NCBI GenBank assembly: GCA_018971045.1
Contig: JAGWVF010000006.1
Coordinates: 176 to 64,175, forward strand
DNA from: Patescibacteria group bacterium
Lineage (GTDB): Bacteria; Patescibacteriota; Minisyncoccia; Phycocordibacterales; Phycocordibacteraceae
Reading direction: 5' to 3'
Length of the DNA: 64,000 bases
The notes beneath the pieces were generated by a model that was given only the letters and a program-made list of their open reading frames with translations, made no database searches and was not told the DNA's origin. Position 1 is the stretch's first letter, and each line of letters opens with the position of its first letter. A program made the translations under genes and the position numbers. Below, in pieces: positions 45,408 through 48,830 of the stretch.

Positions 45408-48400
45408 ATGGAGGAACCCGAGAAATCAGCGGCGGCAAAACGCGAGGAAGCGACGCTCGCGTTCTGGAAGCGCGAGCAGATATTCGAAAAATCCATTGAG
45501 AAGAAATCCACTCGGGGCGACTTCGTATTCTATGAAGGACCGCCGACGGCGAATGGGATGCCCGGCATCCACCACCTCGAAGCGCGGGCCTACAAGGACG
45601 CGATCCCGCGATACAAGACGATGCGGGGTTACCGAGTCGAACGCCGCGCCGGCTGGGACACGCACGGATTGCCGGTCGAACTTCAGGTCGAGAAAGAGCT
45701 CGGCTTCAGCGGCAAGCCGGATATCGAGAAGTACGGTATCGCCGCTTTTAATAAAAAATGCCGCGAGAGCGTGTTCCGCTACATTGATCTCTGGGCGAAG
45801 TTTACGACGCGCATCGGCTATTGGGTCGACGAGACGAAGGCCTACTTCACTCTGGACAGCGCGTATATGGAGATGGTCTGGCATCTCTTCGCCAAAACGG
45901 CGAAGGACGGCCGTCTCTATCGTGATTACAAAGTGGTTCCCTGGTGTCCGCGTTGCGGGACGGCGCTCTCTTCTCACGAGCTCGCGCAGGGATATGCCGA
46001 GGTGAAGGATCTCTCGATCACGGCGAAATTCGAGCTTATCGATGAACCAGGAACTTTCTTTCTCGCGTGGACAACCACGCCGTGGACGCTGCCGGGAAAT
46101 GTCGGACTCGCGGTCGGTAAAAAAATCCGCTACGTTACGATTGAAACGAAAGAGATCGTCAAGGGAACGCCGCTTCGCTATATTCTCGCCAAAGACCGCA
46201 TCGCGCCGCTCTTCGGCGCAGACGAGTATGCCGTGGTCGCGGAGATAAAAGGGGAAGATCTCGTTGGTCGGCGTTATCGGCCGCTCTTCGCTTATGCCGA
46301 AGCGCTCGCGCCCGAGGCGGAGAAACCGAAATTCGAAAAGGCGTTCCGCGTGTACCCGGCCGACTTCGTTACGACCGAAGACGGCACGGGGATCGTGCAC
46401 ACTGCGGTAATGTACGGCCAGGAAGATTTCGAACTCGGCAATCAGGTCGGCTTGCCGAAGGTGCATCTGGTTGATCCGGAGGGGCATTTTATCCCAGGCA
46501 CCGATTTTCTTGCCGGCCGTTCGGTTATCGAAGAACAAACCTCGGTCGAGATTCTGAAAGATCTTCAAGATCGGGGACTTCTCTTCGCGAAGGAATCCTA
46601 CGCGCACACGTATCCCTTCTGTTGGCGCTGTAAGACGCGGCTCGTCTACTACGCGCGCAATTCCTGGTATATCCGAATGCACGATCTGCGGGACACGCTC
46701 GTCGCAGAGAATTCGAAGATCCACTGGGAGCCGGATTATATCCGTGAAGGCCGTATGGGCGAGTGGCTTGCAAATGCGAAGGACTGGGCGATCAGCCGCG
46801 AACGGTACTGGGGGACTCCGCTTCCCGTTTGGCGCAGTGATGACGGCAAGGAACAACTCGTCGTCGACTCGATCGATATGCTTCAGAAGCATGTGAAGAA
46901 GTCGGGCAATACGTATATCTTGATGCGTCACGGCGAAGCCGAGCACAATGTCGCCGGACTGGTGAACGGCCGCGACCGCGACCGCTACCCGCTTACCGAG
47001 AACGGCCGGCGTCAGGCTATGGAGGCCGGCGCCGCTTTTAAGGAGAAGCGCATCACCAAGATCTACGCGTCCCCCTTCCTGCGTTCGAGGCAGACTGCGG
47101 CGATTGTCGCCAAGGCGGTCGGCATTCCCGAAAGCGCCGTCATCATTGACGAACGGTTGCGCGAGCTTTCGCTCGGGAAATTTGAAGAAGCGAAGTATAC
47201 CGATTTTCTCGATTATCGTGATCAGCATATGCATTCGTGCGATGACGCGCTGCCTGAGGGCGAGAGCTACCAGGATGCGCGCCGGCGATTCGGCGAGTTC
47301 CTCTACGAACTTGAGCGTACGGAGGAGCGACAATCGATTCTCATCGTTTCGCACGGCATCGCTTTTGAGGCGATGGAGACCGCGGCCGCGGGCCTCTCGA
47401 AGCAAGATGCGTGGAAAGCGATTAAAGGCATGCATGCGAAACGGGGTGAATACAAGATGCTCGATTTTACGCCGATGCCGCACAATGAGGACTTCGAGCT
47501 CGATCTGCATCGGCCGTACATCGATGATACGGTGCTCGTGTCCGCGAAGGGTACGGACTTGCGGCGCGTACCCGAAGTGATGGACGTATGGTTTGACTCG
47601 GGTTCCATGCCGTTTGCGCAAGCGGCGAGCGAGCGTGGCAGTACGTCGCTGGACGCTTTTACGAAGCACGTGCCGTATCCGGGCGACTACATTTGTGAAG
47701 CGATCGACCAGACGCGCGGCTGGTTTTACACACTGCTCGCGATCGGCGTGCTCTCCGGCCGCGGAATGTCGTTTAAAAATGCGATCTCACTCGGGCATTT
47801 GCTCGATGCGAATGGCCAGAAGATGAGTAAGTCGAAAGGGAATGTGGTCGATCCCTGGGTTCAGATCGAGAAGTGGGGCGTCGATACGCTCCGATTCTGG
47901 ATGTATACCGTTACTCAGCCCGGCGATTCAAAAAATTATGACGAGAAGACGGTACGAGAATCGGCAAAAGTGCTTTCGTGGATCGAAAACAGCGCGGCTT
48001 TTTATTCGTTATTCGCTCCGGCGCATCCGACGCAGGACCCGCATTCAGAAAATACGCCGCCAGTGATCGATCGCTGGATGCGGGCTCGGACGCACCTCGC
48101 CGTCGCGCTCGTTACCGAGGCGATGGATGATTATCGGCCCTTTGAGGCCGGTCGCGCGCTCGCGAGTCTCGCCGAGGATCTCTCGCAGTGGTATGTGCGG
48201 CGCATCCGCGATCGAGCGCGCGACGATGATGCCGCGGCGCTCGATACGCTTCGCGATACGTTGCGGACGGCCGCTCTGCTACTCGCTCCCTTTGCGCCCT
48301 TTCTGGCGGAGGACGTGTTCGCGAAAGTAAAGATGCCGGACGACCCGATGAGCGTTCATCTGGCAGACTGGCCGCATGTCGATCATGCGGCGCGCCGCCC

Positions 48401-48830
48401 GGCGCTTTTCAAAAAGCTTTTTCCCCTTGCCGAACACGACGATCTTCTTTCGGGGATGGAGCGCGTGCGCGTGCGCGCATCCGAAGGATTGCAGTTGCGT
48501 CAGAAGGCAGGCATCAAAGTGCGCCAGCCTCTCGCCAAGTTTACGATTCCGGAAAAAATGAATGACGAATTCCTGGCCGTCCTCGCCGAGGAGGTGAATG
48601 TGAAGCGGGCGGTGTCCGGGATCGAGCTCGCGCTTGATACGACTCTGACGCCGGCGCTCATCGTCGAGGGAGACGAGCGCGCGATGGCGCGCGCAGTCGC
48701 CGAGGCGCGTAAGAGCGAGGGATTCCACGCCCGCGACAAAGTCAGCGTTAAAAGACACTCCGACGGGAAATACGCGGTTCTCTTGTCGACGGGCGAGACT
48801 CGCTTCGACCTTTTCCGCAATGCATCATAG
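45408..48830 (+). CDS. ileS: isoleucyl-tRNA synthetase carrying an inserted histidine-phosphatase domain
   Basis: [12 protein letters not shown] (HIGH-region variant), editing CP1 region, [29 protein letters not shown]. Between WGTPLP and HRPYID lies a ~193-aa histidine-phosphatase domain ([11 protein letters not shown]...IVSHG) at nt ~46905-47485. GTG at 45402 possible; ATG 45408 has AGGA SD. Confidence 0.9.

What the first reader, a model, noticed from the sequence alone, without database searches (positions are those of the whole stretch)
45408..48830. Isoleucyl-tRNA synthetase with an in-frame histidine-phosphatase domain inserted in the catalytic-core linker; close paralogue of stand-alone gene at 4406-5023
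Between the conserved WGTPLP segment and the HRPYID...DVWFDSG segment, ileS carries ~193 extra residues. The insert has a complete histidine-phosphatase (phosphoglycerate-mutase-like) signature: N-terminal RHG ([11 protein letters not shown]) and C-terminal IVSHG. It replaces the usual zinc-knuckle linker of type-2 IleRS.

The insert is strikingly similar to the independent 205-aa phosphatase at 4406-5023. Compare ARHGQNEDNANGILNGHRDLPLTELGRRQAQ with [33 protein letters not shown]. This points to a recent domain capture or duplication.

A phosphatase fused into an essential aaRS is not a known architecture. It could act on an aminoacyl-adenylate-like or phosphorylated inhibitor (a self-resistance function), or it could modulate editing.
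Basis: seen in the sequence. Interest (0 to 1): 0.75.

Follow-up and report, generated by a model that had tools for sequence, protein, structure and literature searches.

The report
Isoleucyl-tRNA synthetase with nested phosphatase domain
The essential enzyme that loads isoleucine onto tRNA carries a complete, apparently active phosphatase domain inside its catalytic region in this bacterium and in hundreds of related Patescibacteria species; the domain came from the gene next door, its substrate is unknown, and I found no paper describing it.

Summary
The core observation holds. One uninterrupted ORF (45402/45408..48830, 1142/1140 aa) is a type-2 IleRS. A ~194-aa histidine phosphatase domain (PF00300, E 1e-35) sits at the tip of its CP2 hairpin.

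It is not a misassembly. All 120 best full-length homologues (62-100% identity) carry the insert, as do at least 242 GTDB species genomes.

The phosphatase catalytic residues are invariant: R509, H510, R561 and H651 in 121/121, E588 in 119/121. The rest of the domain drifts. All IleRS motifs are intact.

The "close paralogue / recent capture from 4406-5023" reading is wrong: 31% identity, 39 bits, no DNA similarity. The nearest free-standing relatives are ~190-aa genes lying between argS and an insert-less ileS in other Patescibacteria, in the same synteny as the window. The adjacent-gene and nested-domain arrangements were mutually exclusive in my sample.

Related IleRS proteins carry the domain at two other sites or in tandem. 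ValRS-like proteins carry up to four copies.

The substrate is unknown; the domain is PhoE/CobC/PspA-like and is not a mutase. Selection appears to favour coupling an active phosphatase to class Ia synthetases. I found no description in the literature searched.

The parts
45408..48830 (+). ileS: type-2 isoleucyl-tRNA synthetase with a nested phosphatase domain. The longest ORF starts at GTG 45402; the database protein starts at ATG 45408. Amino-acid numbers in this report count from 45402.
45402..46898 (+). IleRS N-terminal part (aa 1-499): first half of the catalytic (HUP/Rossmann) fold, the CP1/editing domain, and the first arm of the CP2 hairpin ([30 protein letters not shown]).
   Evidence: aligns to PmIleRS2 8-479; editing residues T224/T225/H333/D342 in 121/121
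45564..45575 (+). HIGH signature in its swapped form G-I-H-H (aa 55-58). This is the GXHH variant described for mupirocin-hyper-resistant IleRS2.
   Evidence: G/A-x-H-H in 118/121 homologues
46899..47480 (+). Inserted histidine phosphatase domain (aa 500-693). The Pfam His_Phos_1 match covers aa 506-672, i.e. nt 46917..47417.
46926..46931 (+). R509-H510 of the RHG motif. H510 is the predicted phospho-accepting nucleophile.
   Evidence: 121/121 each; invariant in inserts only 32-50% identical
47082..47084 (+). R561, the second phosphate-binding arginine (SPFLR motif).
   Evidence: 121/121
47163..47165 (+). E588, the predicted general acid (DERLRE motif).
   Evidence: E in 119/121, D in 2
47352..47354 (+). 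H651, the second catalytic histidine (VSHG motif).
   Evidence: 121/121
47481..48827 (+). IleRS C-terminal part (aa 694-1142): second arm of the CP2 hairpin ([26 protein letters not shown]), second half of the catalytic fold with DVWFDSG and KMSKS (aa 807-811, nt 47820..47834), the anticodon-binding domain, and the type-2 C-terminal domain.
   Evidence: KMSKS 121/121
43472..45121 (+). argS (arginyl-tRNA synthetase), the upstream neighbour. In relatives with an insert-less ileS, the free-standing phosphatase gene lies between argS and ileS.
48820..49389 (+). recO-like gene, the downstream neighbour. It overlaps the ileS stop by 11 nt and is part of the conserved synteny used to match loci.
4406..5023 (+). 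Free-standing 205-aa His_Phos_1 gene. It is an unrelated, distant family member and is neither the source nor a close paralogue of the insert.

Best explanation
This is a genuine, ancient, clade-wide bifunctional protein. It is the housekeeping type-2 IleRS of a Patescibacteria (Parcubacteria/Paceibacteria) bacterium. An independently folding, catalytically competent histidine phosphatase of the PhoE/CobC/PspA type is nested at the tip of the CP2 hairpin of its catalytic region.

Shown:
[quoted passage not shown] It should charge tRNA-Ile normally.
- The phosphatase keeps its catalytic set R509/H510/N516/R561/E588/H651 while the rest of the domain drifts.
- It models as a separate alpha/beta domain.
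- Its closest free-standing relatives are ~190-aa genes lying between argS and an insert-less ileS in other Patescibacteria.
- The adjacent-gene and nested-domain arrangements were mutually exclusive in my sample.

Inferred:
- The neighbouring phosphatase gene was relocated about 1.5 kb into a permissive, already cysteine-free CP2 hairpin.
- The domain hydrolyses a phosphomonoester through a phospho-H510 intermediate, with E588 as the acid.
- Selection acts on physical and stoichiometric coupling of this phosphatase to class Ia synthetases, not on precise geometry. The reason is that relatives carry the domain at three different IleRS sites, in tandem copies, and in ValRS-like proteins.
- The substrate is therefore something met at or bound by the synthetase, and not the aminoacyl-adenylate. 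My favoured single candidate is a 2'/3'-phosphorylated tRNA acceptor end, at roughly 0.15-0.2.

The substrate is not identified.
For: Anatomy.
Not an artefact: 120/120 best full-length homologues carry PF00300. More than 40 further fragments do. So do 242 GTDB species genomes, and 80/80 fetched loci carry it in one ORF.
Active-site conservation against a drifting background: R509, H510, R561 and H651 in 121/121, E588 in 119/121. Mean top-residue frequency is 0.55 in the insert against 0.83 and 0.76 in the IleRS parts. The same residues are invariant in inserts 32-50% identical and in 140/166 domain copies of all kinds.
Independent fold: pLDDT 90-97 inside the full-length model. The domain alone gives pLDDT 94 and pTM 0.91. 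Foldseek TM 0.70-0.74 to PspA, Rv2419c, CobC and PhoE.
IleRS intact.
Origin and linkage: free-standing relatives P0273, P0310, P0343, P0325, P0291 and P0361 lie directly beside an insert-less ileS. P0364 follows argS at a contig end. No adjacent free-standing copy occurs in the 80 insert-bearing loci. L095 has an insert-less, Cys-less hairpin like the window's flanks.
Recurrence: sites 499|694, ~745|760 and ~872|889, tandem copies, and ValRS.
Against: No enzymatic activity has been measured, and catalytic competence is inferred from residue conservation alone. The cap region that normally shapes the substrate pocket (aa ~593-617) is unconserved, so no substrate can be read from it. The embedded domains are acidic (median pI 5.6), and the free-standing relatives range from pI 4.5 to 9.8, so there is no RNA-binding signal. 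All structural neighbours act on small molecules. Housekeeping operons and fusions can join unrelated functions, so adjacency and fusion do not prove a shared pathway. The inter-domain geometry could not be modelled (pTM 0.45, IleRS core pLDDT below 50). The direction of the event (gene into domain, or domain out to gene) is inferred and has not been tested on a tree. The NJ tree of domain copies is star-like. Whether this is the only ileS in the genome was not tested.
Confidence: 0.6

Rival explanations
1. Hitch-hiking metabolic phosphatase. The domain is an ordinary small-molecule phosphatase (for a sugar phosphate, phosphoserine, a nucleotide or a cofactor intermediate) with no functional relation to aminoacylation. 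In a reduced genome it was first co-transcribed with argS/ileS and then fused into a tolerant loop, gaining only constitutive co-expression.
For: All close structural neighbours are small-molecule phosphatases: PspA, glucosyl-3-phosphoglycerate phosphatase, CobC, PhoE, riboflavin-pathway HFP and TIGAR. The domain is acidic and shows no RNA-binding signal. Varied insertion sites show that geometry does not matter. One close free-standing relative (P0334) is not next to ileS.
Against: Within this phosphatase subfamily, every multi-domain host I examined was a class Ia synthetase (IleRS or ValRS-like). The domain occurs at three or more sites and in up to four copies. Repeated tolerated insertion into essential enzymes is hard to explain without an advantage to the linkage. 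The gene position between argS and ileS is kept even where ileS is inverted.
Confidence: 0.3
2. tRNA end-healing. This is a specific form of the coupled model. The domain removes a 2'/3'-phosphate or pyrophosphate from A76 of tRNA, for example one left by damage or installed by toxins that phosphorylate the CCA end. The synthetase that holds the tRNA can then charge it.
For: The hosts are all class Ia synthetases, which bind the acceptor end. CP2 lies in the catalytic region. Tethering at several sites, with copy number from one to four, fits a substrate brought in by the host enzyme. A 3'-phosphate is a phosphomonoester and suits histidine-phosphatase chemistry (family knowledge). A nucleic-acid enzyme fused to this fold has a precedent: the insert matches the PRK07238 RNase H/acid phosphatase model at 75.7 bits, below its cut-off.
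Against: There is no direct evidence. The domain is acidic. No solved relative acts on RNA ends. Such damage would affect all tRNAs, yet only IleRS and ValRS-like hosts were seen. Geometry could not be modelled.
Confidence: 0.17
3. Protein phosphatase. The domain dephosphorylates the synthetase itself or a partner, in the manner of SixA, PGAM5 or Sts-1. It would counter kinases that inactivate synthetases.
For: Some members of the fold are protein phosphatases (family knowledge; weak hit to UBASH3A, 5wdi). Tethering would give specificity without a conserved cap.
Against: The best sequence and structure matches are to small-molecule phosphatases, not to SixA, PGAM5 or Sts. No kinase gene was seen in the conserved neighbourhood.
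Confidence: 0.06
4. Inactive structural module. The domain only replaces the lost zinc knuckle as a stabilising or spacer element.
For: The Zn ligands are lost clade-wide. A few ValRS-embedded copies have lost the acid or the second His.
Against: The catalytic residues are invariant while the remainder averages 0.55 top-residue frequency. An insert-less, Cys-less hairpin exists in L095, so no replacement is needed.
Confidence: 0.04
5. Self-resistance or editing modulation. The domain destroys a phosphorylated or adenylate-like IleRS inhibitor, or tunes editing.
For: The enzyme carries the GXHH motif linked to mupirocin hyper-resistance, so antibiotic pressure on this IleRS lineage is conceivable.
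Against: The phosphate of an aminoacyl-adenylate or its analogues is not a monoester (family chemistry). Insertion at sites far apart in the sequence, and in ValRS, argues against an Ile-specific inhibitor or a precise role in editing. The free-standing form of the same phosphatase works untethered.
Confidence: 0.03
6. Assembly chimera or frameshift artefact.
For: None. Some long-read metagenome assemblies show the gene split into two or three ORFs.
Against: The same architecture occurs in 120/120 best homologues from many independent projects and in 242 species genomes. GC and GC3 are continuous across the junctions. The split calls keep the same order and synteny and look like indel errors.
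Confidence: 0.01

Closest known systems
Bacterial type-2 IleRS (IleRS2) with the swapped GXHH signature motif (Brkic et al. 2023, PMC10485003; PDB 8c8w/8c8u)
   Same: Best overall sequence match: 702 bits across both halves. It shares the domain order, the GXHH motif, KMSKS, the CP1 editing site and the type-2 C-terminal domain.
   Different: PmIleRS2 has a CxxC...CxxC zinc knuckle where the window protein has no cysteines and 194 extra residues forming a phosphatase. The papers I read on IleRS2 structure and evolution describe no such insert.
PhoE (YhfR) of Geobacillus stearothermophilus and its relatives CobC, PspA and Rv2419c: small free-standing histidine phosphatases
   Same: Same fold (TM 0.70-0.74), the same catalytic R-H...R...E...H set, the same size of about 190-210 aa, and the DxRLxE...G motif typical of phosphatase-type members.
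   Different: Identity is only 21-28%. No curated family cut-off is reached: CobC 79.9 against 162.9, PspA 62 against 350, dPGM_arch 98.6 against 225. Those enzymes are free-standing, whereas this domain is nested in a synthetase and its cap region is unconserved.
CP1 editing domain of class Ia synthetases
   Same: It is also a hydrolytic domain nested in the catalytic fold of the same enzyme family, and it acts on something the synthetase holds. This is an analogy only.
   Different: The fold and chemistry are unrelated. CP1 is universal and fixed in position. This insert is lineage-specific, occupies three or more sites, and varies in copy number.
Bifunctional RNase H / acid phosphatase (NCBIfam PRK07238; Rv2228c-type)
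   Same: A histidine phosphatase domain joined to an enzyme that handles nucleic acid. The insert matches that model's phosphatase part (75.7 bits).
   Different: The score is below the cut-off of 326. That protein is an end-to-end fusion, not a nested insertion, and the partner enzyme differs.
NCBIfam NF040702 'ileS_w_GNAT' (IleRS containing an N-acetyltransferase domain)
   Same: It is a precedent for an IleRS that carries an extra catalytic domain (name of the model).
   Different: The extra domain differs, and the window protein scores 279 against a cut-off of 1999, so it is not a member. I did not examine that family further.

Membership tests
Isoleucyl-tRNA synthetase (TIGR00392 ileS equivalog) | Whole-protein score above the curated cut-off | tested here: met
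   790.4 bits against a cut-off of 621.4, in two stretches split by the insert
Isoleucyl-tRNA synthetase | Class I signature motifs HIGH and KMSKS | tested here: met
   KMSKS at aa 807-811, 121/121. HIGH is present in its swapped GXHH form (GIHH, aa 55-58), a form shown to be active in IleRS2
Isoleucyl-tRNA synthetase | CP1 editing domain with the Thr-rich peptide and conserved His/Asp | tested here: met
   [11 protein letters not shown] at aa 223-233 and GTGIVH...D342. T224, T225, H333 and D342 are 121/121. Matches the isolated editing-domain structures 1wk8 and 1wny
Isoleucyl-tRNA synthetase | Charges tRNA-Ile with isoleucine | not testable with these tools
   Requires an aminoacylation assay
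Type-2 IleRS (IleRS2) | Closer to IleRS2 than to IleRS1, with the type-2 C-terminal organisation (no C-terminal zinc-binding domain) | tested here: met
   PmIleRS2 702 bits and T. thermophilus 684 bits, against PmIleRS1 301 and S. aureus 268. The DUF5915 C-terminal domain scores 26.5 bits against a cut-off of 27 in the window protein but clearly above it in homologues. GXHH has been found only in IleRS2
Mupirocin-resistance IleRS MupA/MupB (NCBIfam exceptions) | Score above the curated cut-off of 1900 | tested here: not met
   MupB 668.6 bits and MupA 639.4 bits
Histidine phosphatase superfamily, branch 1 (PF00300) | Score above the Pfam gathering threshold | tested here: met
   123.5 bits against 21.7, aa 506-672, covering profile positions 2-168 of 194
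Histidine phosphatase superfamily, branch 1 | Catalytic core: RHG nucleophile His, two Arg, a second His and an acidic proton donor | tested here: met
   R509, H510, R561 and H651 in 121/121, E588 in 119/121. Also invariant in distant inserts
Histidine phosphatase superfamily, branch 1 | Alpha/beta fold of the family | tested here: met
   AlphaFold2 pLDDT 94 and pTM 0.91. Foldseek probability 1.00 and TM 0.70-0.74 to 4ij6, 4pz9 and 1h2e
Histidine phosphatase superfamily, branch 1 | Phosphomonoesterase activity through a phospho-histidine intermediate | not testable with these tools
   Requires an enzyme assay with an H510A control
Cofactor-dependent phosphoglycerate mutase (dPGM) | Score above the curated cut-offs | tested here: not met
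   dPGM_arch 98.6 against 225, GpmB 80 against 261, and the other dPGM models 35-39 against more than 300. The sequence reads [10 protein letters not shown] after the catalytic Glu. From my own knowledge of the family, this lacks the mutase-type ERHYG motif
Alpha-ribazole phosphatase CobC / phosphoserine phosphatase PspA | Score above the curated cut-offs | tested here: not met
   CobC TIGR03162 79.9 against 162.9. PspA 62.1 against 350

The most novel reading that the evidence does not exclude
The synthetase-embedded phosphatase is a built-in tRNA repair or quality-control step. It would strip a 2'/3'-phosphate or pyrophosphate from the CCA end of tRNA held by a class Ia synthetase, for example damage or the mark left by tRNA-pyrophosphorylating toxins. 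That would make IleRS and ValRS of many Patescibacteria self-sufficient 'heal-then-charge' enzymes. It would add a second nested hydrolytic activity, alongside CP1 editing, to the synthetase catalytic region.
Probability: 0.15. Interest if true: 0.9.

Novelty: new variant of a known kind. Interest (0 to 1): 0.62.

Why it matters
Aminoacyl-tRNA synthetases are among the most studied enzymes. Their extra domains, such as editing domains and eukaryotic appendages, have repeatedly revealed new biology. Here a second, apparently active catalytic domain of an unrelated class sits inside the catalytic region of an essential synthetase in hundreds of species of a major, poorly understood bacterial radiation.

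The association is supported in three independent ways:
- The phosphatase is nested at three or more sites.
- It occurs in tandem copies and in ValRS-like proteins.
- It also exists as a conserved separate gene between argS and ileS.

That gives a clear, testable link between a phosphatase of unknown substrate and class Ia aminoacylation.

There are practical consequences too. Automated annotation currently labels these proteins 'class I tRNA ligase family protein', or may count the domain as a phosphoglycerate mutase, which could distort metabolic reconstructions of these organisms. The locus also offers a natural series for studying how a neighbouring gene becomes a nested domain: an adjacent gene beside a Zn-knuckle hairpin, then an adjacent gene beside a Cys-less hairpin, then the nested domain.

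Tried and rejected
- **Recent duplication from 4406-5023.** Rejected: 31% global identity, no DNA similarity, 39 bits.
- **Split ileS genes.** Short ORFs on long contigs (P0041, P0010) turned out to be fragmented calls of one gene in the same synteny, probably indel errors.
- **Full-length AlphaFold2 model.** I wanted the position of the phosphatase relative to the synthetic and editing sites. The IleRS core was poorly modelled with a 40-sequence alignment (pTM 0.45), and no coordinates or PAE are returned, so no geometry could be drawn.
- **Tree of all domain copies.** The aim was to decide between a single capture and several. The NJ tree is star-like. It only shows that ValRS copies, site-2/3/tandem copies and single site-1 copies fall in different groups, and that the window's free-standing gene lies outside them all.
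- **Charge analysis as a proxy for RNA binding.** Embedded domains are acidic (median pI 5.6). The ileS-adjacent free-standing proteins range from pI 4.5 to 9.8, so there is no consistent signal.
- **Leader RNA or terminator in the 286-nt argS-ileS spacer.** Nothing reached threshold in Rfam, and there were no consensus sites.
- **First GTDB scan with the 19-sequence alignment.** It failed because no stretch was conserved enough. A narrower alignment worked.
- **Foldseek against AFDB.** The library was not available.
- **Seven literature searches for the architecture.** Nothing relevant was found.
- **Not done.** I did not test for a second ileS in the same genomes. I did not establish the taxonomy of the site-2/site-3/ValRS variants, because their records are unnamed.

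
Full report
**1. The observation**

The + strand carries one uninterrupted ORF from 45402 (GTG) to 48830, 1142 aa. The ATG at 45408 gives the 1140-aa protein held by NCBI as 'class I tRNA ligase family protein [Patescibacteria group bacterium]' on a 64,248-nt contig. 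Amino-acid numbers below count from 45402.

Pfam finds tRNA-synt_1 in two stretches, His_Phos_1 at aa 506-672 (E 1e-35), Anticodon_1 and a type-2 C-terminal domain. NCBIfam's ileS equivalog scores 790 bits against a cut-off of 621.

Against solved structures the best matches are P. megaterium IleRS2 and T. thermophilus IleRS. Query 9-499 aligns to PmIleRS2 8-479, and query 694-1049 aligns to 480-822. So aa 500-693 (nt 46899..47480) are a clean insertion with nothing deleted around it.

PmIleRS2 reads WECEGCQHQVAPKSIKELQKHAS | [30 protein letters not shown]. The window protein reads [23 protein letters not shown] | [194 aa] | [29 protein letters not shown]. Both arms of the hairpin are kept, its four Cys ligands are gone, and the domain sits at its tip.

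The published catalytic-core borders of PmIleRS2 are residues 40-168 and 513-632. These place position 479/480 in the connective-peptide region (CP2), between the editing domain and the second half of the fold. This placement is an inference from those borders.

**2. It is not an artefact, and it is old**

- All 120 best full-length database proteins (62-100% identity, 1086-1164 aa) carry PF00133 + PF00300.
- More than 40 further fragments with inserts only 30-47% identical do so as well.
- A scan of GTDB species genomes with two narrow peptide patterns found 242 genomes. They include Kaiserbacteria, Vogelbacteria, Nomurabacteria, Paceibacterota/Parcubacteria and Minisyncoccia.
- In all 80 loci fetched, the domain lies inside an ORF of at least 600 aa, in one copy.
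- GC and GC3 of the insert (0.58/0.71) match the rest of ileS.
- Two hits that looked like split genes are fragmented calls of one ileS in the same synteny.

**3. Both enzymes look functional**

Across 121 aligned homologues:
- KMSKS is 121/121.
- The editing-site residues T224, T225, H333 and D342 are 121/121.
- The HIGH motif is G/A-x-H-H in 118/121. This is the swapped GXHH form, which Brkic et al. showed to be active in IleRS2 and to confer mupirocin hyper-resistance.

In the insert, R509, H510, R561 and H651 are 121/121, E588 is 119/121 (the other two are D), and N516 is 110/121. The domain as a whole is much less conserved than the IleRS body: mean top-residue frequency is 0.55 against 0.83 and 0.76. 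The same residues are invariant in inserts 32-50% identical. This pattern indicates selection on catalysis, although activity itself is untested.

The domain models as an independent alpha/beta unit. It reaches pLDDT 90-97 within the full-length model, and pLDDT 94 with pTM 0.91 when modelled alone.

Its nearest solved relatives are small phosphatase-type members of the family, at TM 0.70-0.74:
- PspA, a phosphoserine phosphatase
- Rv2419c, a glucosyl-3-phosphoglycerate phosphatase
- CobC and PhoE
- a riboflavin-pathway phosphatase
- TIGAR

No curated family cut-off is reached (dPGM, CobC, PspA). The cap region that usually shapes the pocket (aa ~593-617) is unconserved. The domain is therefore a PhoE-like phosphomonoesterase of unknown substrate, and not a mutase.

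**4. Where it came from**

The window's free-standing phosphatase gene (4406..5023) is not the source. Global identity is 31%, there is no DNA similarity, and it scores 39 bits. More than 1,193 cluster representatives score E <= 1e-10 against the insert. It falls outside all embedded copies in a tree.

The nearest truly free-standing relatives are ~190-aa proteins (about 32-40% identity to the insert), at least one of them from Paceibacterota. I looked up nine loci for eight such proteins:
- Six proteins (P0273, P0310, P0343, P0325, P0291, P0361) lie directly beside an insert-less ileS, with gaps of 8-10 nt in the tightest cases. Where visible, they lie just downstream of argS.
- P0364 follows argS at a contig end.
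- Only P0334 is elsewhere.

The surrounding order (SHMT-argS-[phosphatase]-ileS-recO-DUF11/CLIPPER-like-class II synthetase) is the window's own synteny. Conversely, none of the 80 insert-bearing loci has an adjacent free-standing copy.

The insert-less IleRS proteins mostly keep CxxC...CxxC. L095, however, has a Cys-less hairpin (WETEDGERIVVGSI...LTTKSGKK) very like the window's flanks.

The simplest reading is that a phosphatase gene sitting between argS and ileS was relocated into an already zinc-free CP2 hairpin. This is an inference; the direction of the event has not been tested on a tree.

**5. A wider pattern**

An exhaustive search with the insert, followed by mapping of every domain copy onto the window protein, shows several arrangements:
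- **Site 1 (499|694):** the common one, sometimes with two tandem copies (P0286, P0265, P0307).
- **Site 2 (~745|760):** P0279, P0295, P0351, P0315.
- **Site 3 (~872|889, just before the anticodon-binding domain):** P0337, P0279, P0295, P0281.
- **ValRS-like hosts:** two to four copies (P0353, P0362, P0244).

Nearly all copies keep the catalytic set (140/166 read R-H-N-R-E-H). The ileS-adjacent free-standing subfamily reads R-H-Q-R-D-H.

**6. How it most likely works**

Shown: a bifunctional protein with intact IleRS signatures, a conserved phosphatase active site, and a separate fold.

Inferred:
- The phosphatase hydrolyses a phosphomonoester through phospho-H510, with E588 as the acid.
- What has been selected is coupling to class Ia synthetases, not a fixed geometry. 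The evidence is recurrence at several sites, variable copy number, two host enzymes, and the mutually exclusive adjacent-gene form.
- This disfavours roles inside the IleRS catalytic cycle, such as editing or destruction of an adenylate. It favours a substrate brought by or produced at the synthetase.

My estimates are about 0.6 for the coupled-accessory reading overall. Within it, a phosphorylated tRNA acceptor end is the most attractive candidate, at about 0.15-0.2.

The main rival, at about 0.3, is an unrelated metabolic phosphatase that merely shares expression. That rival is supported by the small-molecule specificity of all structural neighbours and by the acidic, non-RNA-binding character of the domain.

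**7. Comparison with what is known, and novelty**

The host is a member of IleRS2 with the GXHH motif. The guest is a member of histidine phosphatase branch 1. It is not a member of dPGM, CobC, PspA, MupA/B or the GNAT-containing IleRS family.

Nested hydrolytic domains (CP1) and extra catalytic domains in IleRS (the GNAT model) are precedents in kind. I found no description of a histidine phosphatase in any synthetase in seven full-text searches. Two recent IleRS2 papers do not describe one either, including a survey of 96,219 IleRS architectures.

The proteins themselves are in public databases by the hundred, under generic names.

**Verdict:** a real, widespread and apparently undescribed variant of a known enzyme, with an unknown second activity. 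It is of moderate to high interest to synthetase and Patescibacteria specialists.

Noticed in passing
window 45564..45575 (aa 55-58 of ileS): The class I HIGH signature reads G-I-H-H. This is the swapped GXHH form that Brkic et al. 2023 linked to mupirocin hyper-resistance in IleRS2. It is G/A-x-H-H in 118 of 121 homologues, and 3 have reverted to H-x-G-H while keeping the insert.
   Followed up: partly
database proteins P0279, P0295, P0337, P0351, P0315, P0281 (locus L083 for P0279): Other IleRS proteins carry the same kind of phosphatase domain at two different positions, equivalent to window aa ~745|760 and ~872|889. Some carry two domains in one protein. The source organisms are unnamed; one cluster member sits on a 1.06-Mb contig.
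   Followed up: partly
P0353 (locus L084 703..5319), P0362, P0244: ValRS-like class I synthetases with two to four embedded histidine phosphatase domains. P0353 has the ValRS C-terminal arm and lies next to a PemK-family toxin gene. A few of these copies have lost the catalytic acid or the second His.
   Followed up: partly
L085 6001..6588, L087 1825..2412, L089 4184..4771, L091 1158..1739, L093 2107..2679, L095 581..1147: Free-standing ~190-aa phosphatase genes (catalytic set R-H-Q-R-D-H in the four checked: P0273, P0310, P0343 and P0325) sit between argS and an insert-less ileS. This holds even where ileS is on the opposite strand (L093, L095).
   Followed up: yes
L088 1..6000: The one close free-standing relative that is not beside ileS (P0334) follows a run of defence-like genes: AbiEii nucleotidyltransferase, NERD, MazG-like, an SLFN-type helicase and DUF3800.
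   Followed up: no
L001 4334..7858 and L002 3547..6869: In two long-contig metagenome assemblies, ileS with its insert is called as two or three adjacent or overlapping ORFs. These look like frameshift errors, not real gene fission.
   Followed up: partly
window 48820..48830: The recO-like ORF starts 11 nt before the ileS stop codon, which suggests translational coupling. The order argS-ileS-recO-DUF11/CLIPPER-like-class II synthetase is conserved across distant Patescibacteria loci.
   Followed up: partly
window 45122..45407: The 286-nt argS-ileS spacer contains a GC-rich hairpin (GGAAACAGCCGC...GCGGCTGTTTTC) about 30 nt before the ileS start. No Rfam family reached threshold and no consensus terminator or promoter was found.
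   Followed up: partly
window 4406..5023 and 1974..4343: The free-standing His_Phos_1 gene lies just downstream of a P-type cation ATPase. It keeps the full catalytic set but matches no curated family (best is CobC, 82 bits against 163).
   Followed up: partly
database annotation of P0121 and its homologues: NCBI names most of these proteins 'class I tRNA ligase family protein' rather than isoleucine--tRNA ligase. One fragment is labelled 'broad specificity phosphatase PhoE' and another carries K15634 (gpmB). The nested domain may therefore mislead automated annotation and metabolic reconstruction.
   Followed up: no
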